Numbered from the stretch's first letter, positions 1,681-19,854 are shown. The stretch is DNA of 40,000 nt from Cellvibrio japonicus Ueda107 (GCF_000019225.1 NC_010995.1:3773957-3813956); one strand, 5' to 3'. Notes: a model not told the origin generated them from the sequence alone. Program-made: numbers and translations.

Positions 1681-1771
1681 GGTTGTTTCCCCTTATGTAA
1701 TGGGCGCCGCTGCAAGCGGCGGCACCCGTGAATATTGCAGCGCGCGGCGGGCAGGCCACCGGGCGCTTTCC

Positions 1772-4045: not shown

Positions 4046-4047
4046 GG

Positions 4048-6324: not shown

Positions 6325-6478
6325 AGTGTTATGTCAGCCCCGTGCTACGCGGTTCGGAATGCCTGGACAGGGGGCAGCCCCGCCCCTGTCAGGAAACGTT
6401 GCCTGCAATCCAGATAGATATAGTTATTGGTATTAGCCAGTCAGCGATAACCCATTATCGCGGCCCGGGCGCAGCACA

Positions 6479-6502
6479 GGCATACCATATTCATGGTATG
6501 CC
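6479..6502 (-). terminator. Perfect 10-bp hairpin just downstream of the histidine kinase stop (possible terminator, no U-tract)
   Basis: GGCATACCAT-ATTC-ATGGTATGCC sits 10 nt after the HK stop. A second hairpin, GCGATAA..TTATCGC, lies at about 6443..6461. Neither has a clear T-run. Confidence 0.3.
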
Positions 6503-6512
6503 TGGGTCGGCC

Positions 6513-8309: not shown

Positions 8310-8986
8310 CACAGTTTTATCAGCCCCCTCTTCGAGGCTTCGTAAACGGCCTCCGAACGGTTGTTGGCCGCCAGCTTGCGGTAAATATTCTTGATATGCA
8401 CGGGCACCGTGTGGCGGGAAATACCGAGCCATTCCGCCAGTTCGGTATAGGTAAAGCCCTTGGCGATACCGCGCAAAATCTCCGTCTCCCGGGGTGTCAG
8501 CTCCGGGGTTGGTGTGGCTGGCGTGGAGCCCCCCATGCGCCGCACCAGGATGCGGGCGATGGAAGAGGAAATCGGCGAGCGCCCGGCGCGCAACTCCTGG
8601 ATCGCCTCCACCAGCTCCAGGGAATCGGCATCTTTAAGCAGATAACCCACGGCACCGGCCTCGATGGCCCCCAGCACCGTCTCGTCATCGGCCAAGGCCG
8701 AAATCACCATGGCATCCGCCTCGGGATACAGGCGGCGCAATAACTGGATAGCCTCAATGCCGTGGCCATCGGGCAGGTTCAGATCCGCCATCAGCAAATC
8801 CACCGGCTGGCGGTGCAGCCTATCCAGCGCCTCGCTCAGGGTAGCGCAGGCGGCCACCAGCTCGCCGCCGGGCCAGTCACCCAGAATGCGGGCAAAGCGC
8901 TCGCGCAGGGGCGTGTCGTCCTCCAGCAGGAGCACCCGCACAGGCGGCGCGGGTTGTCCGCCGCTGTCATCAGTCGTATTAGTCAT
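8309..8986 (-). CDS. NarL/LuxR-family response regulator (REC + LuxR HTH)
   Basis: VRVLLLEDD ... DLLMADLNLPDG receiver motifs. C-terminal LTPRETEILRGIAKGFTYTELAEWLGISRHTVPVHIKNIYRKL. Confidence 0.9.
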   Translation of the reverse strand: MTNTTDDSGGQPAPPVRVLLLEDDTPLRERFARILGDWPGGELVAACATLSEALDRLHRQPVDLLMADLNLPDGHGIEAIQLLRRLYPEADAMVISALADDETVLGAIEAGAVGYLLKDADSLELVEAIQELRAGRSPISSSIARILVRRMGGSTPATPTPELTPRETEILRGIAKGFTYTELAEWLGISRHTVPVHIKNIYRKLAANNRSEAVYEASKRGLIKL

Positions 8987-9042
8987 GGAACAAGTAAGCC
9001 TTTTGGTACAGACCTATCATGGCAGCGCCCGGCGGCGGCCAA

Positions 9043-9091
9043 TATACCCTGTTTATGGTATAGGCGCGTTCGTGTGATTAGGCCATATACC
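9043..9091. promoter_or_regulatory. Repeated TATACC motifs upstream of the two-component operon (candidate operator)
   Basis: ATATACC (9042..9048), inverted GGTATA (9057..9062) and a third ATATACC (9085..9091). The first two form TATACC-N8-GGTATA. Confidence 0.3.
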
Positions 9092-9146
9092 AGCCATGTC
9101 ATCTACAAGCGTCGTCATCAGCTTGCGACAACACCGGCTATCCGCA

Positions 9147-9644
9147 TTACTGGTTGGGCCTGTGGCCATAACTGAGCACCCGGGTAATCTGCCAGCCCGC
9201 ATTGAGATTGCCCCACACCATCACAAAATCCGCCACACCCTCGCACTCCCCGGTGGAAAATTGGCAAAAACGATGTGAGCCCTGGGCAATAGCACCATAA
9301 TCCTTGATGGGAAAAACCTTAAACGTCTCGGGAATCAGTTCGCGGCGAAATTTCCCACACACATATTTTTCCGTGTTGGCAATCATATCCTGCCGCGACC
9401 AGGTTACACCGCCCGTATCATGATAAAACTCCACATCCGCCGCAAAATAGCTGGCATGCTTTTTAAGTTGTTCCGGCGAACTGCAATGGTTAAACGTATC
9501 GAATACCGCCGCATCCAACGCGGCAATGGTGTCAAACAAGGTTGGCAGTTCGCTTTGTTCATTCGACTGATTATTGGGAGCGCTGAATGTATCCAGAGAG
9601 GTGATAACAAATAACACAGCAGCCAAAGGTATGAATTTTTTCAT
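9147..9644 (-). CDS. Secreted NTF2-like (SnoaL/DUF4440-like) protein, distal cassette
   Basis: Start MKKFIPLAAVLFVITSLDTFSA (signal peptide). The C-terminus FVMVWGNLNAGWQITRVLSYGH is typical of NTF2-fold proteins. The track ORF starts 24 nt upstream. Confidence 0.6.
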   Translation of the reverse strand: MKKFIPLAAVLFVITSLDTFSAPNNQSNEQSELPTLFDTIAALDAAVFDTFNHCSSPEQLKKHASYFAADVEFYHDTGGVTWSRQDMIANTEKYVCGKFRRELIPETFKVFPIKDYGAIAQGSHRFCQFSTGECEGVADFVMVWGNLNAGWQITRVLSYGHRPNQ

Positions 9645-9692
9645 GCACACATCTCCGGGCAAAAACATGGTTTTACTGCATCAAAAGGAGTA

Positions 9693-9714
9693 CCGCCAAC
9701 ATCTCAGTTGGCGG
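9693..9714 (-). other. Core-only palindrome CCGCCAAC-N6-GTTGGCGG (mini-attC remnant or terminator)
   Basis: 8-bp perfect stem with AAC/GTT cores. The stop codon of the upstream ORF lies in the loop. Confidence 0.3.
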
Positions 9715-10138
9715 ACATGGTAGTAGTTGGAAGTATTGATTTTTTTAGCTGTTTAGTACGTTTTTTATCCCTAACCCACAGCACCGTGCCATTTGTTTTT
9801 TTCAGCTCAAACAAATCAATGGCCATAAATAAGTCGCTCAATTTTTTGAAGCCATAATTTCGCTGGTCAAAAGACGCATGATTAGAAATATGGGTTCCAA
9901 TAGGCCCCAGCATAGCCCAGCCCTCTTCATCTTCCACCGCCTCAATAGCTTGCCTGAGTAAATTGATTAACTTGGTATCACTCTTAATACTTCGGCTTTG
10001 TTTCTGCACCGGCAGCTCGGTTTCCGGCTCATCATCCAAATAGAGAAAGCGGGAACAACTGTTGACAAAGGCGGTTGGTGCCTTGCGCTCACCAAAACCG
10101 ATAACAAACTTACCATCTGCCAGGGTTCTCGTTACATA
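9704..10138 (-). pseudogene. NYN-LOTUS (OST-HTH) protein remnant, N-terminally truncated or frameshifted
   Basis: The C-terminal part (WAMLGPIGTHISNHASFDQRNYGFKKLSDLF) looks like a LOTUS/OST-HTH domain. The same frame upstream reads DGKFVIGFGERKAPTAFVNSCSRFLYLDD, the end of a NYN domain. There is no in-frame ATG; the track uses an internal TTG. A strong AAGGAG-ATG lies one frame off at about 10137. Confidence 0.5.
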
Positions 10139-10173
10139 TCTCCTTGTAGTTTGACACTACATTAAAGGCTAAG

Positions 10174-10228
10174 AGATAACGAACACTCGCTCCCGTATAC
10201 CGGGGGCGAGCATTCCGTATGGCTAGGC
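10174..10228 (-). other. attC site (55 nt) of the SymE-like cassette
   Basis: On the minus strand: GCCTAGC ... CTCGCCCCCG-GTATA-CGGGAGCGAG ... GTTATCT. Confidence 0.5.
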
Positions 10229-10254
10229 ACCAGGTGGTGATTAAGTCATCAATA

Positions 10255-10440
10255 CTATAGACCAGCCTGGTCACCCGATGAAGCCGACAGGATGATTTGA
10301 CCGGGGTTGATGGTGACTTGCAGTTCTGTGCCAATTGACAAGTTGGCCTGCTCCAGCCAATAGCCTTTGAGAAGGATAAACGGCACAAACCGTGGGCGGG
10401 ACTTTTTGCGGAAGGTCGGGCTGTGGAACTGATAGTCGTA
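10255..10440 (-). pseudogene. SymE-like type I toxin remnant (no start codon)
   Basis: The unlisted frame reads YDYQFHSPTFRKKSRPRFVPFILLKGYWLEQANLSIGTELQVTINPGQIILSASSG. As I recall it, E. coli SymE has ..[35 protein letters not shown]. An in-frame TAA lies immediately upstream and there is no ATG. Confidence 0.4.
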
Positions 10441-10611
10441 TTAAGGTCTTAAGAGTGAGAGCGAGGGGGTATCGAAACAAGGAGCGATTTAGAACAGCAA
10501 TACTGTTTAACTTTGGCGGATTGAATCTTTATCCAAAATCGGTATCCACCTGATTAGGGGAAGGGCCATAAATCAACAGTTTCTTGGTGTTTTTTATGCG
10601 TGGGATTTTAC

Positions 10612-10647
10612 GCCTAATGCTGCGATAAACGGATGGTATTGTTAGGC
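10612..10647 (-). other. Truncated attC (36 nt, cores only) after the PAP2-like cassette
   Basis: GCCTAAC-N22-ATTAGGC. The TAA stop of the ORF lies inside R''. The inner arms are unpaired. Confidence 0.35.
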
Positions 10648-11223
10648 ATTTACAATGTGAACAAGGAATTGAAAAGATATACCTGCAAACAAACCTAAAC
10701 CAGCACCGATAGCTAGATCAAGCCGCGTATGCCGTTCAAGGTGAAATCTTGACCAGCCAACCAAAACAGCAAAAAAAAGAAAAAAGGTAGCCACACTTAC
10801 ATTAGGAAAAATAAGGCAGCTTGCAAGTATTGCGAAGCCAAAATGCAGTGATGGTTTTGCGATTTTGCTTAAAAAATAGCAACACAAAACGATAGCGCCG
10901 GAAAGACCAACGGCAAATACAATACCAGAATGTACGTCAAACAGAAAAAGAACCAAAGTTCCAATAAACAAAAATACACTTGCACTAATGTTAAGTTCTT
11001 TATGTTCGTTTTTTAATGATGCATCTACATGTTCCCATTGCCCGGTTCTTGTTTTAACTTGAGAATATGTGAAAACAAAAATTGCAAAGAAAATAGCGAC
11101 TATAACTGCCAGTAACTGAACCCTATGATTATCGATGGAATTTGCCGCTATTGCTGCGGCAATTGGCATTAGCAACGCAGGATGCCCCACGATTGAAATA
11201 AAACGAGCGATGCTGGTTATCAT
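10642..11223 (-). CDS. PAP2-superfamily-like integral membrane protein (cassette)
   Basis: Start MITSIARFISIVGHP at 11223, just after the attC R'. The track start at 11283 lies inside the attC. Multiple TM helices. PSLH (PSGH-like) and SRFHLERHTRLD (SRx5Hx3D) acid-phosphatase motifs. Confidence 0.65.
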   Translation of the reverse strand: MITSIARFISIVGHPALLMPIAAAIAANSIDNHRVQLLAVIVAIFFAIFVFTYSQVKTRTGQWEHVDASLKNEHKELNISASVFLFIGTLVLFLFDVHSGIVFAVGLSGAIVLCCYFLSKIAKPSLHFGFAILASCLIFPNVSVATFFLFFAVLVGWSRFHLERHTRLDLAIGAGLGLFAGISFQFLVHIVNA

Positions 11224-11228
11224 TTTAT

Positions 11229-11321
11229 GCCTAATGCCCGGCTTTGGGGCGGGCTTGTAGCCGCAGAGCGGCGGAAAGGCCATCCCAGCCCTGAAGGGGC
11301 GACAACAGCCGATTGTTATAT
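11229..11321 (-). other. attC site of the ccdAB cassette
   Basis: On the minus strand: ATATAAC-AAT-CGGCTGTTG ... CAAAGCCGGGC-ATTAGGC. The R'' arm has one extra G relative to the partner arm. Confidence 0.6.
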
Positions 11322-11324
11322 GCC

Positions 11325-11361
11325 TTGCCTCTTACGCCATATGCGCATATTGTATGCGCAT
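11325..11361 (+). promoter_or_regulatory. ccdAB promoter/operator candidate
   Basis: TTGCCT-17 nt-TATTGT. It overlaps the perfect palindrome ATATGCGCATAT (11339..11350) and a second TATGCGCAT (11353..11361). Confidence 0.45.
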
Positions 11362-11382
11362 TGTCCGCATAGAGGAACGACT

Positions 11383-11628
11383 ATGAACCACGCATACAAC
11401 TCCCAAGCCCCTAAAAAACCTACTAATGTCAGTATAAACAGCGACTTACTTGAAAAAGCCCGAGCGCTTAATATCAACCTGTCCGCGACACTGGAGCAAG
11501 CATTAGCCGAACAATTGCGAAACGAGCAGCGGGCACAATGGCTGCGCGAGAACGCCGATGCCATTAAGGCCTACAATCAATTTGTTGAATCCAATGGCAC
11601 GTTTAGTGACAGTATAAGGAAGTTCTAA
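11383..11628 (+). CDS. ccdA: CcdA-family antitoxin
   Basis: MNHAYNSQAPKKPTNVSINSDLLEKARALNINLSATLEQALAEQLRNEQRAQWLRENADAIKAYN matches the CcdA family pattern. The TAATG overlap with the next gene is typical. The track ORF has a spurious N-terminal extension across the attC. Confidence 0.85.
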   Translation: MNHAYNSQAPKKPTNVSINSDLLEKARALNINLSATLEQALAEQLRNEQRAQWLRENADAIKAYNQFVESNGTFSDSIRKF

Positions 11629-11945
11629 TGGCACAGTTTTTTGCATATAAGAACTCCAATCCCGGTACGCGAAAACAATACCCCTACTTGTTGGATATTC
11701 AAAGCGACTTGCTGAGCGAGCTGAAAACGACTGTTATCATACCGCTCTCTCCTGCCAAAATTGCGGCCCCTATGAGCCTGACAAGACTAAACCCGTCTTT
11801 CACTCTCGATGGCGAGACGTTTATCGCAATAACCCAAGACATTGCCGGGATTGATCGCAGCCAGCTTAGCGCTCAAGCTTATGATCTATCAGCATATCGC
11901 CCTGAAATTATTGCCGCAGTCGATTTTGTACTCTCTGGCATATAA
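11628..11945 (+). CDS. ccdB: CcdB-family toxin
   Basis: MAQFFAYKNSNPGTRKQYPYLLDIQSDLLSELKTTVIIPL ... is a CcdB-like sequence of 105 aa, coupled to ccdA. Confidence 0.85.
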   Translation: MAQFFAYKNSNPGTRKQYPYLLDIQSDLLSELKTTVIIPLSPAKIAAPMSLTRLNPSFTLDGETFIAITQDIAGIDRSQLSAQAYDLSAYRPEIIAAVDFVLSGI

Positions 11946-12517
11946 CGCCGCATTGCATGCGCTTTTGCTATTTTTTGCCTTATTTCAGTTGCAAGTTCTT
12001 GGGCTTCACGCATAGTTGATTGGACCAAATCCCAATTAGCCCAATGCTGTTTCCATTTTTCCTTACCTACTACAGATTCAAAATCTATCAAAGTTGGCTC
12101 ACCCCAATTTTCATAATTCTCCAACCGCCGGATACGCTTATCAATATCCTTAATCCCACGGGTTTTTGGTGATAGTTTTGCATTGCTTTGCATCCAAGCT
12201 TTCCAAGGCTTGTTACCTTTGGATTGATTACACTTTCCGCAAGAAGGCACAAGATTGTAAATTTCTGAAATATATCCTGTTGGAAGTTTATTGATTACCA
12301 ATGGACGTAAATGATCCCATTCTGATGCCGCTGCTCCACAGTATGCACACTGAAAATCGGCATATCCCATCTCTAAAATTTCTAATGCCTTTTGAACTTG
12401 ATTATCTGTAGGGACAATAATTGGAATAATTGAATTAATAAATGAATTAGTAATACTCGAAGATCGACCTGTGATCTTCATCGGTGTTGGCATTCTGAAT
12501 AGTGATAAGTAATTCAT
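11879..12517 (-). CDS. HNH endonuclease (cassette)
   Basis: CAYCG ... EWDHLRP ... NLVPSCGKCNQSKGNK is an HNH/zinc-finger signature. The last 67 nt overlap the convergent ccdB. Confidence 0.8.
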   Translation of the reverse strand: MNYLSLFRMPTPMKITGRSSSITNSFINSIIPIIVPTDNQVQKALEILEMGYADFQCAYCGAAASEWDHLRPLVINKLPTGYISEIYNLVPSCGKCNQSKGNKPWKAWMQSNAKLSPKTRGIKDIDKRIRRLENYENWGEPTLIDFESVVGKEKWKQHWANWDLVQSTMREAQELATEIRQKIAKAHAMRRYMPESTKSTAAIISGRYADRS

Positions 12518-12534
12518 GACTCTAAATTTCTAAC

Positions 12535-14306
12535 GAGCTTGTAGAAAAACGATTTTTAGAGATCGTTATCCAGCAGCTAAAATTGAAATTATTACCTGGC
12601 CAGTATTTAACCACAACCCCTTAACATAATCACCCATTATCCGCAGTCGAATGAATTCGATGTGAATAACTCTGTGGATTAACCCACATTCGCGTAATTC
12701 ATTAACTTTTCGATGTTATGTACCAAACAATATAACTGCCATTGACCTTGCACCTTGCGTTTTCCTCGTAACGAAAATCGATTCAGCTGTTTATTCGCGC
12801 AAATATTGGCGAAAACCGGCTCCACAGTCGACATGCGATGACCGTAAATAGCTTTTCCTTGTTTGCTATCAATCCGACGCTTCATCCAGTCTGTCGCATT
12901 GGCATGAATCGAAAACGTTTTAGATACCTGACGCCCATGACCTTCGCGGCTATCAGCTGACGAAGGATTACGCATGCATTCATACTTGAGGGGACAGTGA
13001 CGACAATCCGTTAGCTTACCCTCAAAATACAATTGCATTCGACCTGGCCCTTGACGGTATTCATGTTTCAGCCACATGTCCTTCCCTGCCGGACACTTAC
13101 AGCTTTTTCGTTGCAGGTCAAAAATAAATTCCGAGGCCGGAATAACGGCTTTTACTCCCTTCACATTATCTTGATGGCGCTTACCATGTTTCTCTTTTTG
13201 ATGGTCAAACATCTTGTCTCTTGAGCGAAATTGATTATCCGGAATATATGCATTGATACCTTCTTCTTTAAGGTACTCATCGTTAGCACCATTGGAAAAC
13301 CCCGTATCTGCCGTAATGATCACATTGGATTTTAGGATGTCGTCGCAGATCCCCATCTTTTGGTAACGCGTCTGTATGCTATGCAGAACAGGCTTTAATG
13401 TGTGATGTTCCTGACTTTCACCAAAAGCCTCGGCATCAACAATAACCTGATGCTTCTTATCAACGGCGGCTACGCCGTTGTAACCCTGGATGGTACCTTT
13501 ACTGGTCGTCATCTTGGCCGACTCATTGTCGGTAATATTGCTCTTCACTTCCTTTGGTTTTTTACCTTGCCCCATCCGTGGGGTTGCTGTCTTTAGGAAC
13601 TTATCTATCCGCTCGAATTCTTTTTTCAGGGTGTCGGTTGCTTTAGCGAGTTGCTGCTTGCGGTCTCGCTCGTTGGGTTTTCGGCCATCCAGTTTTTTGT
13701 GTTCTTTCAAGCAGGTGCGGATTTTGCGGCTGATCTTTTCTCGCTTTTGAGCCAGCTCATCCAAGGTTCCGGAGTGCTCCTTGGCGGCATTAGAAGATAT
13801 CTTGCAACCATCAATGGCAAAGAGTTCATGTCCCAGTAAGCCATGTTGGTCGCACACCAGTATTACTTGTGTAAAAACCGATTCAATCGCATCCGGATAG
13901 CTACTGACAAAGCTGGCAATGCTGGTGAAGTGGGGGACGGAATCGCAGGAGAGGGCTTTGAAAATAATATTGTGCTCGCATTGCCACTGAATGTCGCGGC
14001 TGGAGGTAATGCCCTTGGAGTACGCAAACAAGATAATTTTTAGCAAGATGGCCGGATCGTAAGCTGTACGCCCACCGCCATCGTTGCTGTACTTTTCGTA
14101 GAAAGCCGACAGGTCGATATGGTTGTCGATTAATTTATGAAGGGTAAATTCGAAAGTGCCTGGCTGTAATTGCTCTTCAAAATTAATAACCACCATTGCG
14201 CTTTGGCTATAGCTGTATTTTTTGAAGTTTGGCATGGCGCTACTCCTTGAAACGATACCGAATTTTATCAAAAAATCACTATTTTTAGGAGTTTTTCTAC
14301 AACTTC
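12535..14306 (-). mobile_element. IS element, IS1182-family-like, inserted in an attC core
   Basis: Terminal inverted repeats GAGCTTGTAGAAAAAC (12535..12550) and GTTTTTCTACAACTTC (14291..14306), 14/16 matching. Flanking AAC duplication at 12532..12534 and 14307..14309. One transposase ORF. Confidence 0.75.
12679..14235 (-). CDS. DDE transposase (IS1182/IS5-superfamily type)
   Basis: Start MPNFKKYSYSQS preceded by AAGGAG. N-terminal RTAYDPAILLKIILFAYSKGITSSRDI, a central coiled-coil, Cys clusters, and C-terminal STVEPVFANICANKQLNRFSLRGKRKVQGQWQLYCLVHNIEKL. Confidence 0.85.
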   Translation of the reverse strand: MPNFKKYSYSQSAMVVINFEEQLQPGTFEFTLHKLIDNHIDLSAFYEKYSNDGGGRTAYDPAILLKIILFAYSKGITSSRDIQWQCEHNIIFKALSCDSVPHFTSIASFVSSYPDAIESVFTQVILVCDQHGLLGHELFAIDGCKISSNAAKEHSGTLDELAQKREKISRKIRTCLKEHKKLDGRKPNERDRKQQLAKATDTLKKEFERIDKFLKTATPRMGQGKKPKEVKSNITDNESAKMTTSKGTIQGYNGVAAVDKKHQVIVDAEAFGESQEHHTLKPVLHSIQTRYQKMGICDDILKSNVIITADTGFSNGANDEYLKEEGINAYIPDNQFRSRDKMFDHQKEKHGKRHQDNVKGVKAVIPASEFIFDLQRKSCKCPAGKDMWLKHEYRQGPGRMQLYFEGKLTDCRHCPLKYECMRNPSSADSREGHGRQVSKTFSIHANATDWMKRRIDSKQGKAIYGHRMSTVEPVFANICANKQLNRFSLRGKRKVQGQWQLYCLVHNIEKLMNYANVG

Positions 14307-14416
14307 AACGCCGCGATAAGCGGTGGTTTTTAAGTTGCACTTTTGCCATAAAATGGAGCGAAGCGGAATGGCAAAAGAGCAACTTAAAAACCATCCGTTT
14401 GATTGCTTTGTTAGGC
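14307..14416 (-). other. attC site of the 14411..14830 cassette (R' core split by the IS)
   Basis: On the minus strand: GCCTAAC (the stop TAA lies inside) ... GGTTTTTAAGTTGC.CTTTTGCCAT / ATGGCAAAAG.GCAACTTAAAAACC long stem ... GCGGC-GTT|IS. The rest of R' (GTTAGAA) is at 12528..12534. Confidence 0.65.
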
Positions 14417-14830
14417 ATGGTGTTCGTGGCCAAACCCAATTCTATGCCAAGCTTCTTTAAAATTTGATGTGTCGTATGATGTTGGTTGAAGCCAATATGA
14501 AATAACACCATTTTTTTCGCCACGATGAGCTAAATTTTTAATTTCTTCAGGGAGCATTACAAATACATTTGGCTCTTTACCAACATTATTAATTATTAGC
14601 CAAAAATCACCCATAACTTTTTCAAGAGAGCTACCCAATGGTACGGGATTTCTTTTTGTAAGTGATTTTACTTGAACCCCAATAAACTCAGTTCCTGATT
14701 TGTTATAAGCAATAATGTCTATGCCTCTAGCGTTTCTCGCAGTTGGCATAACGTTCCAACCCATACAGGAAAGCTTATAGCACGCGTAATACATTCCGAT
14801 ATTTCCAGTCACCTGAGTTTCCAGCTTCAT
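14411..14830 (-). CDS. PD-(D/E)xK nuclease-fold protein (Hjc/DUF4365-like), single-gene cassette
   Basis: GNIGMYYACYKLSCMGWNV ... RGIDIIAY ... FIGVQVKS matches the E...D...(Q/E)xK layout of archaeal-Hjc-type nucleases. The ATG lies 8 nt after R' GTTAGGC. Confidence 0.6.
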   Translation of the reverse strand: MKLETQVTGNIGMYYACYKLSCMGWNVMPTARNARGIDIIAYNKSGTEFIGVQVKSLTKRNPVPLGSSLEKVMGDFWLIINNVGKEPNVFVMLPEEIKNLAHRGEKNGVISYWLQPTSYDTSNFKEAWHRIGFGHEHHA

Positions 14831-14837
14831 TACTATT

Positions 14838-14922
14838 GCCTAACGCCGTGCTCAACGGCAGTTTGTAAGTTGTGGTTTTGTGGGTTACTTTTGCGCAGCA
14901 AAACCACAAAGCCGCGAGTCGA
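14838..14922 (-). other. 3' portion of the intron-interrupted attC (cassette 4)
   Basis: Ends in GCACGGC-GTTAGGC (R' at 14838..14844). Contains CTTACAAACTG (14859..14869), complementary to 16781..16791. An inner hairpin TTGTGGTTTTG...CAAAACCACAA is present. The upper limit depends on the unresolved intron 3' end. Confidence 0.4.
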
Positions 14923-14958
14923 GTAGACCAACGGAACCTCCCCCATCAGCCCCTCACA

Positions 14959-14992
14959 GAACCGTACGTGACACTCTCGCGTCATACGGCTC
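14959..14992 (-). ncRNA. Group II intron domain V
   Basis: GAGCCGTATGACGCGAGAGTGTCACGTACGGTTC is a 34-nt hairpin with the catalytic AGC triad and the bulge position typical of DV. Confidence 0.85.
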
Positions 14993-15018
14993 TTGTTATT
15001 CCAACTATCAACAATGTA

Positions 15019-16263
15019 TCACCAGTGCGCAAACAGGGTCGGCCGCCACTGTTTGATTTGCGTTAACCATGAGTAGGCGTTCAGTCGTCGGCTGCGCTTC
15101 TGCGGATATTTACCTTTTACCCATTTTGTTAATCGGCATTCAATCGCTTCTCGAATGCCTTGCAGTGCCGATGGATAAAAAGCGCCGTAGTAGGTAAACC
15201 ACCCTCTGATTTGTGGATTGAGCTTTTTGCTGAGTGTGACTATCGATAGCCTACTCAATCGTCTCACATTCCACTCTCTCATCGTCTTCACAATCGCTTT
15301 CTTGGCTTTGTTGCTGATGGCCGGTACAAAACCCGGAACCAATTTGCCATCTTTGCGTTTCACGGTTCTTCGCCGGAAGGTGAAGCCCAGAAAGTCAAAC
15401 GATTGCGCTTTGGTCCTTTCTATTTTGCGTCGGCCACAGTATACAATTTTGGTTTTCTCAGGGTGCAGTGTTAAATCAAAGCGCTGCATCCTTCGTGAAA
15501 TAGCACTGAGCAGTTGCTCCGCTTCATGCTCTGTTCGACAATGACAAACAATATCGTCGGCATAGCGCTCGAACGGATTTTGTGGAAAATATTTTTGCAT
15601 CCAGCTATCAAACACTTTGTGCAAATAAAGATTCGCCAACAGCGGGCTAATAACTCCCCCCTGTGGCGTTCCTTTTGCAGTCTTGTGCAGCTCACCGCCC
15701 GGCATTTGCACACCGGCCGTGATCCAGCGCTTGATGTACAGCTTGCACCATGGGTCATCCGTTGCTTGTGCAACAAATTTTTGTAATTGATCGTGATTCA
15801 AATTGTCGAAGAAACCTTTGATATCCAGATCAATGACCCATGAATATTTCCAGCAGTTTATTTTCGCCGCTTGCACCGCGTGATGGGCACTCCGCCTGGG
15901 GCGATAGCCAAACGAGGATGCGTGGAATTTGCTATCCCATTCCGGCTCCAGTGTCATCTTGACCACCATTTGCGCCACTCGATCTGCCACCGTGGGTATA
16001 CCCAGTGGACGCAGCTTGCCATCCGCTTTGGCCATTTCAACTCGCTTTACCGGTGGTGCCATGTAGCTGCCTGAACTCATCCGGTTCCAGAGTTTATACA
16101 ACTCATTTTCCAAATTGTGTTCAAACATGTCGATACAGACATTGTCAGCACCCGCAACACCCGCGTTTGCTTTTACTTTCAACCAAGCCGCATACACCAA
16201 CTGCTTCGATATACTGTAACTGTGCACTGATTGTTGAATCCTGCCTTGCGGTTGTTGGTTCAA
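15019..16263 (-). CDS. Group II intron reverse transcriptase/maturase (no endonuclease domain)
   Basis: RT blocks: RPLGIPTVADRVAQ, DLDIKGFFDNLNH, GTPQGGVISPLLANLYL, ERYADDIVCHC (YADD). Maturase X region FLGFTF ... IRGWFTYYG. The protein ends LFAHW. The start codon is uncertain (TTG at 16263). Confidence 0.9.
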   Translation of the reverse strand: MNQQPQGRIQQSVHSYSISKQLVYAAWLKVKANAGVAGADNVCIDMFEHNLENELYKLWNRMSSGSYMAPPVKRVEMAKADGKLRPLGIPTVADRVAQMVVKMTLEPEWDSKFHASSFGYRPRRSAHHAVQAAKINCWKYSWVIDLDIKGFFDNLNHDQLQKFVAQATDDPWCKLYIKRWITAGVQMPGGELHKTAKGTPQGGVISPLLANLYLHKVFDSWMQKYFPQNPFERYADDIVCHCRTEHEAEQLLSAISRRMQRFDLTLHPEKTKIVYCGRRKIERTKAQSFDFLGFTFRRRTVKRKDGKLVPGFVPAISNKAKKAIVKTMREWNVRRLSRLSIVTLSKKLNPQIRGWFTYYGAFYPSALQGIREAIECRLTKWVKGKYPQKRSRRLNAYSWLTQIKQWRPTLFAHW

Positions 16264-16780
16264 TCACTGCTGAATAACATCGCCCCTTCGCTCCATTGTC
16301 ATTACAACAACTTCAACACTACTACGAACGATTCCGCCACTGTGCGCCGCATCGATACTCTCACCTTACGGGGTCACCGCTTTCGGCTTCTCTCTTAACA
16401 TCAGCACGACAGCTTCCCGAGTTCCTCACAAAAGCCTGATAAACGGTCACGCCTTCTTTACGCCGGTTGCCATCGGATCAGTAAGCAGTTTTCTTTCCGG
16501 TTTCTCTCAGCAATTGTAAGGGTCGCTGATTTTGACAACAGTTAGGGACATCACGACGCCTCATCAAAGGTTCACTTGCGTTCGTCTCCGTTTATCGTAC
16601 CTGCCGAATTTTATTCCGACTTTTCTTCAACGCTCACGACAATGACTCTTTATCAATGCCGCTTGAAGTGGTTTGCACTCACTTACTGCAAAGCGAATGC
16701 GGTGGGCCTGCCACCATCTCTTGCGAAGTTACGTAAACAGTTTGGACGCTACGCGACCCCACCATTTACTCTCGGCACAC

Positions 16781-16832
16781 CTTACAAACTGTCCAGCACG
16801 CAAAGCGTGCGAACTAGAACGCCTTGTTAATG
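16781..16832 (-). other. 5' portion of the intron-interrupted attC (cassette 4)
   Basis: R'' CATTAAC (16826..16832) lies 6 nt after the cassette stop. Then the hairpin GCACGC-TTT-GCGTGC (16796..16810), then CAGTTTGTAAG abutting the intron. Confidence 0.45.
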
Positions 16833-16838
16833 ATTTGG

Positions 16839-17261
16839 CTATAACCACATTTGCACAATAATTGTAATGGCAACCCCACAAGAACCCATACCAAACAGAA
16901 CTAGCTGCCACCAAAACAGACACCACGATAATTTTCCTAGAGCCTTGGTTTCTTGCCGGTCACTAGAACTGACTGGTTCATCTTTATAGCGTGAACGTGC
17001 AATCTGCGTGGTAGCACGAAAATCTCGCAGGCGGTTGATGGCGCACCAAACAGATAGACCAATGGAAATTGCGAGCAAGACCATTGAGCATGTTGCGATA
17101 ATAAGCAAGCAACTGCTAACGGGCTGAACAACAACAAAACCAGAGACTAAAAATGCCAGAAGACCTGTAGATAGCCCAAGAACAAGATTGGATACAGACG
17201 AAAAATAATCTCTCGTAATACCTTGCCACCGAACGAAGCTCTCTTTATCTTCTGCTGCCAC
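16839..17261 (-). CDS. Small integral membrane protein, unknown function (cassette)
   Basis: GTG start preceded by AGGAG. Three or four hydrophobic helices. I recognise no motif. Confidence 0.55.
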   Translation of the reverse strand: MAAEDKESFVRWQGITRDYFSSVSNLVLGLSTGLLAFLVSGFVVVQPVSSCLLIIATCSMVLLAISIGLSVWCAINRLRDFRATTQIARSRYKDEPVSSSDRQETKALGKLSWCLFWWQLVLFGMGSCGVAITIIVQMWL

Positions 17262-17276
17262 TTACTTTCTCCTGCT

Positions 17277-17360
17277 CATTAACGCCCGCAGCAAGCGCGG
17301 CTTTGTAGTGAATGCGAAGCCGCAACGGAAGAGTCGTCGCCTTGACTGCGATTGTTATGT
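17277..17360 (-). other. attC site
   Basis: On the minus strand: ACATAAC-AAT-CGCAGTCAAGGCG ... CGCTTGCTGCGGGC-GTTAATG. There is an extra T in the R'' arm. The stop TAA of the ORF lies inside R''. Confidence 0.7.
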
Positions 17361-17669
17361 TTTTGGTGCCCAGCCATTACGCTCAGCCAAGACTTGCCAC
17401 TCAGGTTTTTTTGTAGGGATTATACTTTCACAATATTTAATAAGGCTTTCTAGATGAAGATCCTTGCCATTGTATAAATTCCCTGGCGTGGACTTTCCCT
17501 TAACTTTTGGATTGGCATGAGAACCTTGCAGCCTCGTTATTACATTGCCTAAAAGCTGCTTCAGTTGAACATCTTCAGTTTTGTTCATGATTTTACCAAG
17601 ACTTGTAATGTGAGAGGCTACGGTCTTCATTTCCTTCAGTGCATTTATTGTTTCTTCATAAATAGTCAT
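17355..17669 (-). CDS. Hypothetical protein (cassette), 104 aa
   Basis: Start MTIYEETINALKEMK preceded by AAGGAG. The track start at 17702 lies inside the attC. No recognisable motif. Confidence 0.55.
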   Translation of the reverse strand: MTIYEETINALKEMKTVASHITSLGKIMNKTEDVQLKQLLGNVITRLQGSHANPKVKGKSTPGNLYNGKDLHLESLIKYCESIIPTKKPEWQVLAERNGWAPKT

Positions 17670-17693
17670 AACTTTTCTCCTTGCCTTGGCAAA

Positions 17694-17808
17694 ACATAAC
17701 ACTTAGGTAAGTCGTGGTTGGTATGTTGTGTTTTTTGGAGCAAAATGAGCGATAGCGAATTCCAAAAAATGCAACATACCAACCATCGGCTTGACCGTTT
17801 TGTTATGT
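17694..17808 (-). other. attC site
   Basis: ACATAAC ... GGTCAAG.CCGATGGTTGGTATGTTGC / ..CAACATACCAACCACGACTTACC ... GTTATGT. This is a long imperfect palindrome with two extra bases in the R'' arm. Confidence 0.7.
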
Positions 17809-17814
17809 AATTAT

Positions 17815-18294
17815 TTAAGCTTTTGGTATCTCTTGCAGATTATTTAAAAGCTCAATACCCGATATTACTTTAAAGCCCTCAGCGTTACAGATATTTTCAC
17901 ACCAACTTTTTTGGCTTGCAATTTCACCATCTCGAGTAGCTTGGTTGTTCCAGTTCCGATCATAAGCCTGTGTGTAGAGAACCATGAATAGCTGTACTTC
18001 AGCACCATAGAATTTTTTTAACAATTCTAAATGTTTTGGATGACGCTCCCGCTCACATTTAACATTACAGCCTTCTATTTCAAATGCCGCGATAACTTTC
18101 CAATACCTTGAGTTAGGAAGGTTTTGCTCATTCGAATTCGAACTTTGCCTTAGAGCCCAAACCAAGTCGATATGTTTAGGTCGTTCTTCTAAATTCGGAG
18201 GACAATCAGAATGCAATGCAAACTCAGGAATTACACAATATCCTTTCTCTCGACCGGCTTCGATTAGAGAAGAGTAAATATCATTTTTTGTCAT
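17815..18294 (-). CDS. Hypothetical protein, possible restriction-endonuclease-like fold (cassette)
   Basis: 159-aa clean ORF. The HIDLVW ... AAFEIEG arrangement resembles a D...ExE/K nuclease core. This is weak, by-eye evidence only. Confidence 0.55.
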   Translation of the reverse strand: MTKNDIYSSLIEAGREKGYCVIPEFALHSDCPPNLEERPKHIDLVWALRQSSNSNEQNLPNSRYWKVIAAFEIEGCNVKCERERHPKHLELLKKFYGAEVQLFMVLYTQAYDRNWNNQATRDGEIASQKSWCENICNAEGFKVISGIELLNNLQEIPKA

Positions 18295-18316
18295 TTATTT
18301 TTTATATCCCATATCA

Positions 18317-18392
18317 ACATAACGTTTGGTTAAGGGGCGGGCTTTAGCCCGTCCCAGTGAGCGAAGCGAACGATTTGAACCAATTGTTATAC
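18317..18392 (-). other. attC site
   Basis: GTATAAC-AAT-TGGTTCAAATCG ... CCCCTTAACCAAAC-GTTATGT. There is an extra C in the R'' arm. The central stem is GGGACGGGC/GCCCGCCCC. Confidence 0.7.
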
Positions 18393-18398
18393 AGCAGG

Positions 18399-18593
18399 CT
18401 ATACGCTAAATGGCATAGCTGTGTCGTACTCCTCTAAGGTGGCCTCCAGAAATTCGTCACGATGAATTTTTGCTTTTTCTGACCATACACATAAAACTTT
18501 ATTAGGCGTACTTCCGGAGTACCCCTCTACGGTCATAAGCTCACCGCCAGACTTTAGAATCACCACATCACCTACGTTGAATTTATTGCTCAT
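18399..18593 (-). CDS. DUF2158 (YodC-like) small protein, first cassette
   Basis: MSNKFNVGDVVILKSGGELMTVEGY is the typical DUF2158 N-terminus. AAGGAG RBS. The track start at 18626 is upstream. Confidence 0.7.
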   Translation of the reverse strand: MSNKFNVGDVVILKSGGELMTVEGYSGSTPNKVLCVWSEKAKIHRDEFLEATLEEYDTAMPFSV

Positions 18594-18642
18594 AACGACT
18601 CCTTTTTGTTGTTTGACGAAATTCAAAATTTTTATTCATGAC

Positions 18643-18806
18643 GTATAACATTGTTATTAGACGGAAAGTTTCCGTATAACATCCCGGAAAATTTCCACCT
18701 AAGTTTTTTGATCAAGCTTTATACCACACCGTCAAACTACCCGCCATTACAGGCTTATAGCACTTTATTATCAATTAACAAGCGAGATAAAAGGTGGAAA
18801 GCTTCC
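18643..18806. other. attI region
   Basis: The crossover core GTTATAC (minus strand, 18643..18649) complements the R'' of cassette 1. A second ATGTTATAC box is at 18674..18682. Three GGAAAnnTTCC palindromes are at 18663..18673, 18686..18696 and 18796..18806. Confidence 0.5.
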
Positions 18807-18834
18807 TTGCTAATTCACCTATTATGGATACAAT
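18807..18834 (+). promoter_or_regulatory. Candidate intI promoter
   Basis: TTGCTA-16 nt-TACAAT. Confidence 0.45.
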
Positions 18835-18836
18835 AA

Positions 18837-18852
18837 CTGTTTGCATATACAG
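18837..18852 (+). promoter_or_regulatory. LexA (SOS) box
   Basis: CTGTTTGCATATACAG is a perfect CTGT-N8-ACAG. It starts 3 nt downstream of the candidate -10 and lies 31 nt upstream of the intI ATG. Confidence 0.7.
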
Positions 18853-18882
18853 CTCACTTATTTAAAGGAGCAAGGAGGCATA

Positions 18883-19854
18883 ATGTACAAATCCCCTTTT
18901 TTATCAAGCATTTACGATGAAATGATGCGCCGTCGCTACGCCAAGCGAACCATCGAAACCTATTTGCATTGGATCAAGCGTTACATTGTGTTCCATAACA
19001 AGCAGCATCCGTCCTTGATGGGCGACAGAGAAGTTGAAGCCTATCTTGATCATCTGGTTTTACAGCACAATGTCGCGGGACCAACACAAGCACTGGTATT
19101 AAATGCACTCAGCTTTCTTTATAGGGAGATATTGCACAAACCCTTATCCCTGGAACTAAGGTTTGTCAAAAGTCAAAAAACCCGCAAGCTCCCCGTAGTA
19201 CTCACCCGTGACGAAATAACTGCGTTGATGGCTAACATAAGCAGCAACCATTACTTACCGGCAGCATTGATGTATGGCAGCGGCCTTAGACTCATGGAGG
19301 CCGTACGATTGCGAACAAAAGACATAGATTTTGATTACTGCTGTGTGCGGGTCTGGAATGGGAAAGGAGGAAAGCATCGTACAGTCACCCTGGCCCCAGA
19401 GTTAAAAAAGCCTTTAACAGTACAAATACAACGGGTGGAATATCTCCTATCCAAGGATTTGCTAAATCCAACCTATGACGGTGTTTGGCTACCACATGCA
19501 CTCCGGCATAAATATGTTTCTGCCAATACATCACTGGGTTGGCAATATTTATTTCCATCGGATCGTTTGAGTATCGATCCTGAAAATCAACGGGTCAGAC
19601 GACACCATATTGATGAAAGCGGATTACAAAAAGCCATCAGAAATGCCTCGCAAAAAGCCAATATCCGCAAACATGTTAGCGCACATACACTGCGTCATTC
19701 TTTTGCCACTCACTTACTAGCATCCGGGGCTGATATTCGTACCGTGCAGGATCAGCTTGGACATACAGACGTTAAGACGACTCAAATTTATACCCACGTT
19801 TTGCAAATGGGCGGCAATGCCGTAAAAAGCCCCTTCTCAACGCTGGGTATTTAG
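18883..19854 (+). CDS. intI: Integron integrase IntI
   Basis: Start MYKSPFL preceded by AAGGAGCAAGGAGG. Tyrosine recombinase boxes RLMEAVRLR, HTLRHSFATHLL and GHTDVKTTQIYTHV. It also has the IntI-type extra segment ALRHKYVSANTSLGWQYLFPSDRLSIDPENQRVRRHHIDESGLQKA. Confidence 0.93.
   Translation: MYKSPFLSSIYDEMMRRRYAKRTIETYLHWIKRYIVFHNKQHPSLMGDREVEAYLDHLVLQHNVAGPTQALVLNALSFLYREILHKPLSLELRFVKSQKTRKLPVVLTRDEITALMANISSNHYLPAALMYGSGLRLMEAVRLRTKDIDFDYCCVRVWNGKGGKHRTVTLAPELKKPLTVQIQRVEYLLSKDLLNPTYDGVWLPHALRHKYVSANTSLGWQYLFPSDRLSIDPENQRVRRHHIDESGLQKAIRNASQKANIRKHVSAHTLRHSFATHLLASGADIRTVQDQLGHTDVKTTQIYTHVLQMGGNAVKSPFSTLGI

What the first reader, a model, noticed from the sequence alone, without database searches (positions are those of the whole stretch)
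9147..19854. Complete integron with an array of about 11 cassettes, forming an AT-rich island between GC-rich core operons
intI (18883..19854) has the tyrosine-recombinase boxes plus the extra segment that, as I recall, distinguishes IntI from XerC/D.

Divergent from it, each minus-strand unit is bounded by an imperfect palindrome of the form xxxTAAC ... GTTxxxx.

A direct test from the sequence is the circular-cassette signature. The 6 nt after each GTT crossover should be the reverse complement of the R'' core at the far end of the same cassette. The observed pairs are:
- TTATAC/GTATAAC (cassette 1)
- TTATGT/ACATAAC (cassettes 2 and 3)
- TTAATG/CATTAAC (cassette 4)
- TTAGGC/GCCTAAC (cassettes 5 and 8)
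- TTATAT/ATATAAC (cassette 7)
- TTAGGC/GCCTAGC (cassette 9)

That is 8 of 10 testable cassettes.

In four attC sites the R''-proximal arm carries an unpaired extra base: GGTTCAA vs GGTTAA, GGTCAAG vs GGTAAG, CGCAGTCAAG vs CGCAGCAAG, CGGCTGTTG vs CGGCTTTG. This is the extrahelical-base hallmark of attC.

The whole block is visibly AT-rich, while the flanks (two-component system on the left, TolC operon on the right) are GC-rich. The composition switch sits immediately after the intI stop.
Basis: partly seen in the sequence, partly recalled or inferred. Interest (0 to 1): 0.75.

Follow-up and report, generated by a model that had tools for sequence, protein, structure and literature searches.

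The report
Chromosomal integron with decaying cassette array
This is a real but ordinary chromosomal integron of Cellvibrio japonicus: an intact integrase and four or five usable gene cassettes, followed by a decayed tail that a group II intron and a cassette-site-seeking insertion sequence have invaded.

Summary
The window is from Cellvibrio japonicus Ueda107. The gene at 18883..19854 is a full-length integron integrase: TIGR02249 scores 456 bits against a cut-off of 265, and it aligns without gaps to VchIntIA. A LexA-box-like motif lies in its promoter region.

I built a covariance model from eight unrelated resistance-cassette attC sites. Over the 40 kb it gives only four hits with E below 0.05, all on the cassette strand and all at predicted sites (attC1, 2, 3 and 5). 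The circular-cassette signature is perfect for 7 of 8 testable cassettes.

"About 11 cassettes" is too generous.
- attC4 is an aberrant hybrid that carries a group II intron (16780..14918).
- attC6 is largely deleted, so cassettes 6 and 7 (reversed ccdAB) are fused.
- attC7 and attC8 read ATT where GTT is expected.
- The distal 1.5 kb holds only remnants.

The 62-66% GC flanks are probably not core. The clpB side of the window is 51% GC, and the efflux operon is 79% identical to Halopseudomonas DNA.

Most interesting by-product: the IS1182-family element (14306..12535) sits exactly on the GTT of attC5. Every relative examined does the same, across 11 distinct left and 10 distinct right flanks.

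The parts
18883..19854 (+). intI, integron integrase (323 aa), intact
   Evidence: TIGR02249 456.5 bits (cut-off 265), profile positions 1-315 of 315. Gap-free alignment to VchIntIA 2A3V residues 3-319, E 5e-125. Xer-type structures align only to residues 5-178 and 228-306, leaving the IntI-specific segment unmatched. The exact protein is ACE85435.1, annotated as integron integrase of C. japonicus.
18837..18852 (.). LexA-box-like palindrome CTGT-N8-ACAG, just downstream of a -35/-10-like pair (TTGCTA 18807, TACAAT 18829) for intI
   Evidence: It is the only CTGTN8ACAG in the 40 kb (0.36 expected in the whole window), and it lies 31 nt upstream of the intI ATG. The promoter-like hexamers are not above the shuffle expectation.
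18643..18680 (-). attI: core GTTATAC (18649..18643, crossover G|TT at 18649/18648), preceded by TAATAAC and a direct copy of GTTATAC at 18680
   Evidence: Read from the sequence. The TTATAC after the crossover is the reverse complement of attC1 R'' GTATAAC.
18323..18648 (-). Cassette 1: DUF2158 small protein (18593..18399) + attC1 (18392..18317, 76 nt)
   Evidence: Pfam DUF2158 E 2.5e-10. attC model R1 26.1 bits, E 6e-5.
17700..18322 (-). Cassette 2: 159-aa protein of unknown function (18294..17815) + attC2 (17808..17694, 115 nt)
   Evidence: R1 18.1 bits, E 0.0097. 25-nt inverted repeat, 92% complementary. No Pfam or PADLOC hit.
17283..17699 (-). Cassette 3: 104-aa protein of unknown function (17669..17355) + attC3 (17360..17277, 84 nt)
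   Evidence: R1 16.3 bits, E 0.03. Fold.
16781..17282 (-). Cassette 4: 140-aa membrane-like protein (17261..16839) + left part of aberrant attC4 (R'' CATTAAC 16832..16826)
   Evidence: Homologous cassettes in metagenome contigs L041 and L042 start with the same G|TTAATG and carry an intact 84-nt attC (R1 hits). The window copy shares only CATTAACAAGGC and GCGTGCTGG with them.
14918..16780 (-). Group II intron (1863 nt): 5' GTGTG, 3' ...CGAC; reverse transcriptase/maturase 16263..15019
   Evidence: Rfam D1-D4 107 bits and D5/D6 65 bits. TIGR04416 423 bits. The 3' end was fixed by rejoining the exons of relatives into YADDFVI codons. EBS1 CTTACA (16520..16515) complements the last six exon bases TGTAAG, and EBS1/IBS1 co-vary in relatives.
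14838..14917 (-). Right part of hybrid attC4, ending in GTTAGGC (14844..14838)
   Evidence: Its arm CTTACAAACTGCCGTTGAGCAC is complementary to the 21 nt just before the intron. The same right arm occurs in L127 positions 1-40.
14307..14843 (-). Cassette 5: 139-aa protein (14830..14411; relatives are named PD-(D/E)XK endonuclease domain protein) + attC5 (14416..14307)
   Evidence: Best attC hit in the window: R1 37.8 bits, E 4e-8. The 90%-identity cluster has 117 members across Shewanella, Halomonas and others.
12535..14306 (-). IS1182-family insertion sequence: inverted repeats GAAGTTGTAGAAAAAC / GTTTTTCTACAAGCTC, transposase 14235..12679 (518 aa), flanked by GTT on both sides
   Evidence: NF033551 270.4 bits (cut-off 270) and Pfam DDE_Tnp_1_6. 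Junctions.
11940..12534 (-). Cassette 6: HNH endonuclease with a decayed attC6. Only the R' end GGCGTTATAT (11946..11940) is left, and the ORF has lost its stop and runs on to 11879.
   Evidence: Pfam HNH. The homologue in L127 stops at ...AKAHGKL and has R'' CTATAAC plus attC sequence that is missing here.
11229..11945 (-). Cassette 7: ccdA (11383..11628, +) and ccdB (11628..11945, +), opposite in orientation to the array, + attC7 (11321..11229) whose R' is ATTAGGC
   Evidence: Pfam CcdA E 8e-32 and CcdB E 3e-28. attC7 has R''/L''/L' geometry by eye but scores only 8.3 bits with R1.
10612..11234 (-). Cassette 8: 193-aa membrane protein (11223..10642) + 36-nt attC remnant GCCTAAC-22 nt-ATTAGGC (10647..10612)
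   Evidence: R1 aligns both ends with the centre missing, 9.8 bits.
9126..10611 (-). Degenerate tail: ORF-free 570 nt; NYN/OST-HTH gene fragment (10039..9704) ending in palindrome CCGCCAAC-6-GTTGGCGG (9714..9693); DUF4440 gene (9644..9147) followed by GCCCAAC-20-GTTGTCG (9159..9126)
   Evidence: Pfam OST-HTH E 8.5e-18 and DUF4440 E 3e-6. No attC hit better than E 0.15 in a targeted search.

Best explanation
This is a sedentary chromosomal integron of Cellvibrio japonicus.

How it works, by analogy with studied integrons (inferred): the SOS-regulated tyrosine recombinase IntI recombines the folded bottom strand of attC sites with attI. It inserts circular cassettes at G|TT (18649/18648) and excises them between attC sites.

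What the sequence shows: the promoter-proximal cassettes (1-3 and 5) have canonical attC sites and carry the footprint of having been circular. Further from attI the array is fossilising.
- attC4 is a hybrid of two sites and is occupied by a group II intron that sits in its own cognate target.
- An IS1182-family element is inserted on the GTT of attC5.
- attC6 has been deleted, welding the HNH cassette to a reversed ccdAB toxin-antitoxin cassette. Such cassettes are thought to stabilise arrays.
- The last sites are point-mutated at the crossover G or reduced to mini-palindromes.
For: Shown:
- IntI family membership, full length, with the IntI-specific segment.
- Nearest named integrases are in Cellvibrio (83%), Teredinibacter (69%) and other Cellvibrionaceae and Alteromonadaceae. 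This fits vertical residence in this lineage.
- An independent attC covariance model gives four significant hits, all on the right strand at predicted coordinates, and none with E below 1 in the 29 kb outside the integron. The same model finds untrained attCs elsewhere, so it generalises.
- The circular-cassette signature holds for 7 of 8 cassettes.
- Cassettes 4 and 6 occur as cassettes with their own attCs in unrelated metagenome contigs.
- There is a single LexA-box-like motif, and it lies in the intI promoter region.
- The intron and the IS are defined by family models and by their junctions.
- A low-GC chromosomal integron is documented in the relative Saccharophagus degradans (PMC2386152).
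Against: - No recombination activity was observed. All public contigs with this IntI are 100% identical to the window, so they are the same strain and show no cassette turnover.
- No Pc promoter could be called above chance.
- attC2 and attC3 are only marginally significant with a model trained on clinical attCs.
- The statements about loss of function (attC4, 6, 7, 8) are inferred from sequence, not tested.
- The synteny test was weak. The three other genomes carrying the efflux operon lack intI and attCs next to it, but they also lack the left flank.
Confidence: 0.9

Rival explanations
1. A fully active integron of about 11 independent cassettes: every unit is bounded by a working attC and can be excised and reshuffled.
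For: R'/R'' complementarity also holds for cassettes 7 and 8, and nearly for '9'. attC7 has a plausible 93-nt stem with an unpaired base.
Against: - attC6 lacks R'' and its centre when compared with the intact homologue.
- attC4 has 19 unpaired extra bases plus a 1.86-kb intron.
- attC7 and attC8 have A at the crossover G, and attC8 is only 36 nt.
- Nothing in 9000..12100 scores better than E 0.15.
Confidence: 0.05
2. A recently imported mobile integron: the AT-rich block came in by horizontal transfer into a GC-rich core chromosome.
For: There are sharp GC steps at both ends. The attC sites are heterogeneous in length and sequence, as in mobile integrons.
Against: - The host's housekeeping DNA in the same window is 51% GC, closer to the integron (44%) than to the flanks (62-66%).
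- The closest IntI relatives belong to the host's own family.
- No transposition module (tni/Tn402-like) adjoins intI.
- The GC-rich efflux operon is the part that resembles another genus, at 79% nucleotide identity to Halopseudomonas.
Confidence: 0.1
3. Not an integron: a XerC/D-like recombinase next to unrelated palindromic repeats (REP-like elements or terminators).
For: Tyrosine recombinase families overlap. XerC and XerD models also hit this protein, at 138-146 bits.
Against: - Those scores are far below the Xer cut-offs (about 330 bits), while the integron-integrase model is far above its own.
- The alignment to VchIntIA is gap-free, including the segment that Xer proteins lack.
- The palindromes match a model built from bona fide attCs.
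- They obey the cassette-specific R'/R'' rule, which REPs and terminators have no reason to obey.
Confidence: 0.01

Closest known systems
Sedentary chromosomal integrons of marine and soil Gammaproteobacteria (Vibrio cholerae superintegron with VchIntIA; Saccharophagus degradans 2-40 integron)
   Same: - The IntI aligns over its full length to VchIntIA (E 5e-125; about 64% identity read off the printed alignment).
- intI and attI are divergent.
- Cassettes encode mostly unknown functions.
- There is a toxin-antitoxin cassette in reverse orientation.
- GC is lower than in the host, as reported for S. degradans (PMC2386152).
- A LexA-type box lies at the intI promoter.
   Different: - The array is short, about 9.5 kb with roughly 8 recognisable units, against 40 to more than 170 cassettes.
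- The attC sites are heterogeneous (76-115 nt) rather than one species-specific repeat family such as the VCRs or the 140-bp Sde repeat.
- The distal half is decayed.
- The element is sandwiched between two GC-rich segments that look acquired.
Class 1, 2 and 3 mobile integrons
   Same: The parts and logic are the same. A covariance model trained only on their attCs recognises attC1, 2, 3 and 5 here.
   Different: - IntI is only 43% identical to IntI1 and 45% to IntI2.
- There are no resistance genes, no Tn402/Tn7 backbone and no qacEdelta1-sul1 segment.
Group IIC-attC introns (S.ma.I2 and relatives)
   Same: A group II intron lodged inside an integron attC site.
   Different: - IIC-attC introns insert into the bottom strand and are opposite in orientation to the cassettes (PMC3001079). 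This one is on the cassette strand.
- This intron has an EBS2-like partner as well as EBS1.
- Of its 80 fetched relatives (44-55% RT identity), none had a significant attC hit nearby. Many of those with a resolvable 5' junction sit in the YADD codons of other reverse-transcriptase genes.
- The nearest precedent is the IIB intron UHB.I2, which is co-oriented with cassettes and lies right after an attC (PMC7923331).
IS1111-attC group (ISPa21, ISUnCu1, ISKpn4 and others; Tetu & Holmes 2008, Post & Hall 2009, cited in PMC3971601)
   Same: An insertion sequence lineage that targets integron attC sites in one fixed orientation.
   Different: - Those elements have a DEDD transposase of the IS110/IS1111 family and are RNA-guided (PMC11187229 title and abstract).
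- The element here has a DDE transposase of the IS1182 family with terminal inverted repeats.
- It inserts on the GTT crossover triplet of R', with GTT on both sides.

Membership tests
Integron (intI + attI + cassette array) | Tyrosine recombinase of the IntI clade, carrying the additional segment absent from XerC/D | tested here: met
   TIGR02249 456.5 bits against a cut-off of 265, full length. Gap-free alignment to 2A3V. Residues about 179-227 are unmatched in the XerA alignment. The catalytic R, K, H, R, H, Y residues and W220, P233 and HH241-242 are conserved when read off that alignment; the numbering of VchIntIA contact residues is from my own memory of the 2006 structure paper.
Integron (intI + attI + cassette array) | attC sites: imperfect palindromes R''-L''...L'-R' with an unpaired base, recognisable by an attC covariance model | tested here: met
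   Model R1 was built from 8 class 1/2 attCs taken from plasmids. It gives four hits with E from 0.03 down to 4e-8, all at predicted sites, and none elsewhere in the 40 kb. IntegronFinder's own model was not available.
Integron (intI + attI + cassette array) | Cassettes carry the circular-permutation footprint: the 6 nt after each G|TT is the reverse complement of the R'' at the cassette's far end | tested here: met
   7 perfect of 8 testable. Re-pairing control: 0.03% of 200,000 shuffles reach 7.
Integron (intI + attI + cassette array) | attI adjacent to intI, and a Pc promoter reading into the array | tested here: inconclusive
   The attI core GTTATAC, with a direct repeat, lies 234 nt from the intI start and satisfies the cassette-1 footprint. 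Promoter-like hexamers are not above the shuffle expectation.
Integron (intI + attI + cassette array) | IntI-catalysed attI x attC and attC x attC recombination | not testable with these tools
   All public contigs are identical to the window, so no natural variation in cassette content could be seen.
[quoted passage not shown]
   The intron RNA domains and the RT gene are on the minus strand, the same strand as the cassette ORFs. The definition is from PMC3001079.
Group IIC-attC intron | Class C recognition: a short IBS1 after a hairpin, no EBS2; member of the attC-associated IEP clade | tested here: not met
   12-14 nt of the 5' exon are complementary to two D1 segments. None of the 80 fetched relatives has a significant attC hit beside it. 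Many of those with a resolvable 5' junction home into YADD codons. No IEP phylogeny was made.
Group II intron (mobile, ORF-containing) | Domain V/VI ribozyme core, 5' GUGYG, 3' AY, intact RT/maturase | tested here: met
   RF00029 65.1 bits (gathering score 40). RF01999 107.4 bits (gathering score 36). TIGR04416 423 bits (cut-off 300). The ends are GTGTG and AC.
IS1182 family | DDE transposase matching the family model; terminal inverted repeats | tested here: met
   NF033551 270.4 bits against a cut-off of 270, which is marginal. Pfam DDE_Tnp_1_6, DUF772 and DDE_Tnp_1 also hit. The inverted repeats match at 14 of 16 positions.
IS1111-attC group | DEDD (IS110/IS1111-type) transposase | tested here: not met
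   The transposase hits DDE families only.
Type II toxin-antitoxin CcdAB | Adjacent CcdA and CcdB genes | tested here: met
   PF07362 109.8 bits and PF01845 98.4 bits. The genes overlap by one base. The NCBIfam equivalogs are below cut-off, so these are distant members.

The most novel reading that the evidence does not exclude
The IS in the array represents a lineage of IS1182-family (DDE) insertion sequences specialised for the integron attC site. As far as the searchable literature shows, this lineage has not been described.

- It inserts precisely on the GTT crossover triplet of R', always co-oriented with the cassettes, and duplicates GTT.
- Its left end (GAGG/GAAG) rebuilds a GTTRRR core, so the upstream attC should stay usable. 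The IS would then become the first part of the downstream cassette and could be carried around by the integrase.
- The lineage is abundant in Cellvibrionales and Alteromonadales integrons.
Probability: 0.45. Interest if true: 0.6.

Novelty: new member of a known kind. Interest (0 to 1): 0.35.

Why it matters
The integron itself adds little. Its integrase is already annotated as such in public records, and chromosomal integrons with cassettes of unknown function, a toxin-antitoxin cassette and SOS-type control are textbook.

Its value is as a compact, readable example of how an array ages. In 9.5 kb it shows intact sites, a fused site, a deleted site, crossover-base mutations and mini-palindrome remnants, in order of distance from attI.

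Two parasites of the array are more interesting.
- A non-class-C group II intron is co-oriented with the cassettes. Only one such precedent turned up in the literature search.
- An IS1182-family lineage appears to home to the attC crossover triplet. If it is new, it would be a second, mechanistically unrelated IS family that exploits integron recombination sites. It would also be a marker for finding cassette arrays in metagenomes.

Tried and rejected
- A naive MFE scan for AAC...GTT hairpins found only attC1-3 and several false positives inside genes, so I replaced it with a covariance model.
- I first took the intron for a IIC-attC intron. I rejected this on orientation, on EBS2-like pairing and on the targets of its relatives.
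- I first placed the intron's 3' end at 14923. Rejoining the exons of relatives moved it to 14918.
- I first read attC5's R' as GTTGAAG and puzzled over an extra GCTC before cassette 6. Comparison with other copies showed that GAAG and GCTC are the IS ends and GTT is duplicated.
- I looked for strain variation in cassette content through exact-protein contig look-ups. All contigs were the same strain.
- I looked for spliced-exon contigs that would restore attC4. None were found.
- The homologue of the cassette 5 gene in L128 is not in a cassette context, so it gave no comparison for attC5.
- I checked whether the Halopseudomonas-like loci carry attCs next to the efflux operon. There were none.
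- PADLOC and Pfam on the cassette proteins gave nothing beyond weak HNH/PtuB-like similarity.
- The exact transposase is not on record, so other genomic copies in C. japonicus could not be listed.

Full report
**Source and layout**

The exact IntI, efflux-protein and cassette proteins of the window are those of Cellvibrio japonicus Ueda107 and derivative genomes. The window has three compositional classes:
- 1-9.0 kb and 19.96-24.66 kb are 62-66% GC.
- 9.15-19.85 kb, the finding, is 44% GC.
- 24.7-40 kb, which includes clpB, is 51% GC.

**The integrase**

ORF 18883..19854 (+) matches the integron-integrase model TIGR02249 over its whole length, at 456.5 bits against a cut-off of 265. XerC and XerD models score 138-146 bits, far below their cut-offs.

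It aligns without a gap to the crystallised V. cholerae IntI4/VchIntIA (2A3V, residues 3-319, E 5e-125). Alignments to XerA and to an XerC-like protein break into two stretches that skip roughly residues 179-233, which is the IntI-specific segment. Catalytic residues, and the Trp/Pro/His-His residues that I recall contact the extrahelical bases, are conserved in that alignment.

It is 43% identical to IntI1 and 45% to IntI2. Its nearest named relatives are in Cellvibrio (83%), Teredinibacter (69%), other Cellvibrionaceae and Alteromonadaceae.

The only CTGT-N8-ACAG motif in the 40 kb lies at 18837..18852, 31 nt upstream of the start codon. This fits the SOS control known for integron integrases; that part is my own knowledge and was not tested here.

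**The attC sites**

IntegronFinder's model was not available, so I built an equivalent that is independent of this window. Eight attC sites (aacA4, cmlA5, a gcu cassette, dfrA1, sat2, blaOXA-1, catB3, arr-3) were read out of class 1 and class 2 integrons on plasmids. They were aligned and turned into covariance model R1 with a hand-set R''/L''/L'/R' structure.

Scored over every position of the window on both strands, R1 gives four matches with E below 0.05.

| Site | Coordinates | E-value |
|---|---|---|
| attC5 | 14416..14303 | 4e-8 |
| attC1 | 18392..18317 | 6e-5 |
| attC2 | 17808..17694 | 0.0097 |
| attC3 | 17360..17277 | 0.03 |

Nothing in the 29 kb outside the integron has an E-value below 1; the best match there scores 9.5 bits, E 2.2.

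The model generalises. It finds an untrained attC in a class 1 array and many attCs in unrelated marine arrays.

**The cassette footprint**

The 6 nt after the crossover match the reverse complement of the R'' at the far end for cassettes 1, 2, 3, 4, 5, 7 and 8. That is 7 of 8 testable; cassette 6 has no R'', and '9' has one mismatch.

When the same sites are re-paired at random, 7 matches occur in 0.03% of 200,000 trials. The four unpaired bases in the L'' arms are as described.

*(a) attC4.* The homologous cassette occurs in two metagenome contigs. It has the same G|TTAATG start and an intact 84-nt attC: CATTAAC-AAGGC-CAGCCAC...GTGCTGG-CGGC-GTTAAT. In the window only CATTAACAAGGC and GCGTGCTGG are shared. 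Nineteen unmatched bases follow the spacer.

The stem that does form is GCGTGCTGGACAGTTTGTAAG paired with CTTACAAACTGCCGTTGAGCAC. It belongs to another attC type, whose right arm also occurs at the start of contig L127. I read this as a deletion that fused two attCs.

*(b) The group II intron.* That stem carries a group II intron at 16780..14918.
- It lies on the cassette strand, whereas IIC-attC introns lie on the bottom strand (PMC3001079).
- Its EBS1, CTTACA, complements the last six exon bases. A second D1 segment complements the bases just upstream. EBS1 and IBS1 co-vary in relatives.
- Of the 80 fetched relatives (44-55% RT identity), none has a significant attC hit beside it. Many of those with a resolvable 5' junction are inserted in the YADD codons of other reverse-transcriptase genes. 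This also fixed the true 3' end of the intron.
- A IIB intron co-oriented with cassettes has been reported once in the searched literature (PMC7923331).

*(c) The IS.* An IS1182-family IS (14306..12535) follows attC5.

*(d) attC6.* The HNH cassette in L127 ends ...AKAHGKL-stop, followed by R'' CTATAAC and its attC. In the window, 16 nt containing the stop and R'', and about 21 nt of the attC centre, are missing. The ORF therefore runs across GTTATAT (11946) into the antisense of ccdB. Cassettes 6 and 7 are thus fused.

*(e) The distal sites.* attC7 (11321..11229) looks right by eye, but its R' is ATTAGGC and it scores 8.3 bits. 'attC8' is a 36-nt remnant, also with ATTAGGC. 'attC9' scores 3.6 bits. 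None of these reaches significance, even in a search restricted to 9000..12100.

The OST-HTH fragment and the DUF4440 gene are each followed only by a mini-palindrome of the form xxxxAAC-(6 to 20 nt)-GTTxxxx (9714..9693 and 9159..9126). These may be internally deleted attCs.

*Count.* There are four sites supported by the model, one plausible but mutated site, one hybrid, one deleted site and up to three remnants.

**Cassette content**

| Cassette or unit | Content |
|---|---|
| 1 | DUF2158 small protein |
| 2, 3, 4 | Three proteins with no family match |
| 5 | Protein whose relatives are named PD-(D/E)XK domain proteins |
| 6 | HNH endonuclease |
| 7 | ccdAB, reverse orientation |
| 8 | Membrane protein |
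| Tail | NYN/OST-HTH fragment and a DUF4440 protein |

 No resistance or known defence system was recognised.

**Context**

The efflux operon to the right of intI has 79% nucleotide identity to Halopseudomonas and related contigs. Those loci have no intI, no two-component system and no attC next to it.

The housekeeping side of the window is 51% GC. Together these suggest that the GC-rich flanks, rather than the integron, are the stronger compositional outliers.

**By-product: the IS targets attC**

In the window the junctions read ...CGCGGC GTT | GAAGTTGTAG...CTACAAGCTC | GTT AGAA. The second GTT opens cassette 6. I then examined relatives:
- a 70-80% identical copy in L127;
- Pseudoalteromonas chromid copies about 40-43% identical, in L129 and L130;
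- 20 contigs carrying two further transposases, P0256 and P0207.

Every readable junction has the same form. There are 11 distinct left flanks, all ending ...GC GTT before GAG[G/A]CTG[T/C]AG. There are 10 distinct right flanks, all beginning GTTA.

The left flanks are attCs. R1 hits end on the junction in the window, L130, L132 and L142-146, and the other flanks fold as attCs. The transposase is always co-oriented with the attC top strand. One contig (L145) has an integrase gene fragment (Phage_int_SAM_4 plus Phage_integrase domains, cut at the contig end) divergent upstream.

The IS right ends carry no attC, so the element is not itself a cassette. Searches of the paper library found only the IS1111-attC group as attC-targeting ISs, and nothing linking IS1182 to attC. 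That library is incomplete and ISfinder could not be consulted, so novelty is uncertain.

**Unexplained**

Public short-read contigs identical to the window break reproducibly at 18661-18709 and at about 10411-10434, without any repeat in the window to explain it. They may be RNA-seq assemblies.

**Verdict**

The finding is a real, complete, but ordinary and half-decayed chromosomal integron: a new member of a known kind. The attC-homing IS1182 lineage is the item worth following up.

Noticed in passing
window 12535..14306; also L127 2347-2440, L129 about 5590, L130 3901-5740, L132-L151: An IS1182-family IS is inserted exactly on the GTT of attC R', with GTT on both sides and the transposase co-oriented with the cassettes. 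The same junction occurs in every relative examined (11 distinct left flanks, 10 distinct right flanks). No paper in the searchable library links IS1182 to attC targeting.
   Followed up: yes
window 14918..16780: The group II intron inside an attC is not of the IIC-attC type. It is on the cassette strand and has EBS1 plus an EBS2-like pairing to its exon. Many of its relatives (44-55% RT identity) sit in the YADD codons of other reverse-transcriptase genes, that is, introns homing into intron ORFs.
   Followed up: partly
window 1..9000 and 19959..24665: Both flanks are 62-66% GC, while the clpB side of the window is 51% GC. The TolC/HlyD/ABC-2 operon is 79% identical at DNA level to Halopseudomonas xiamenensis, Pseudomonas sp. 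MYb185 and a MAG. These flanks look horizontally acquired rather than core.
   Followed up: partly
window about 18661-18709, about 14888, about 12560, about 10411-10434: Dozens of public short-read contigs, 100% identical to the window, end at these same positions. Contigs starting at 18675 or 18709 run through cassettes 1-4 into the unspliced intron. Possibly these are RNA-seq assemblies marking transcript ends. No repeat in the window explains the 18661 and 10423 breaks.
   Followed up: partly
window 18837..18852: This is the only CTGT-N8-ACAG (LexA-box-like) motif in the 40 kb. It lies between the -10-like hexamer and the intI start codon.
   Followed up: partly
window 10612..10647, 9693..9714, 9126..9159: Each of the three distal genes is followed by a mini-palindrome xxxxAAC-(6 to 22 nt)-[G/A]TTxxxx. 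They look like attC sites that have lost their whole interior by deletion.
   Followed up: partly
window 11229..11235 and 10612..10618: Two successive R' cores read ATTAGGC instead of GTTAGGC, and the 15 nt around them are alike (GCATTAGGCxTAAAAT). This may be a duplicated junction rather than two independent mutations.
   Followed up: no
L008 4000..10000 (Halopseudomonas xiamenensis, upstream of the efflux operon): The region upstream of the homologous efflux operon holds several small toxin-antitoxin-like ORFs (HicB-like, PIN/VapC-like, RelE-like) but no attC hits. It is a different variable region at the same border.
   Followed up: partly
L131 (Catenovulum adriaticum plasmid) 1973..5149: A related IS1182-family transposase lies near a BrnT/CopG toxin-antitoxin pair, a group II intron maturase fragment and an attC hit. 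This could be another array with the same set of parasites.
   Followed up: no
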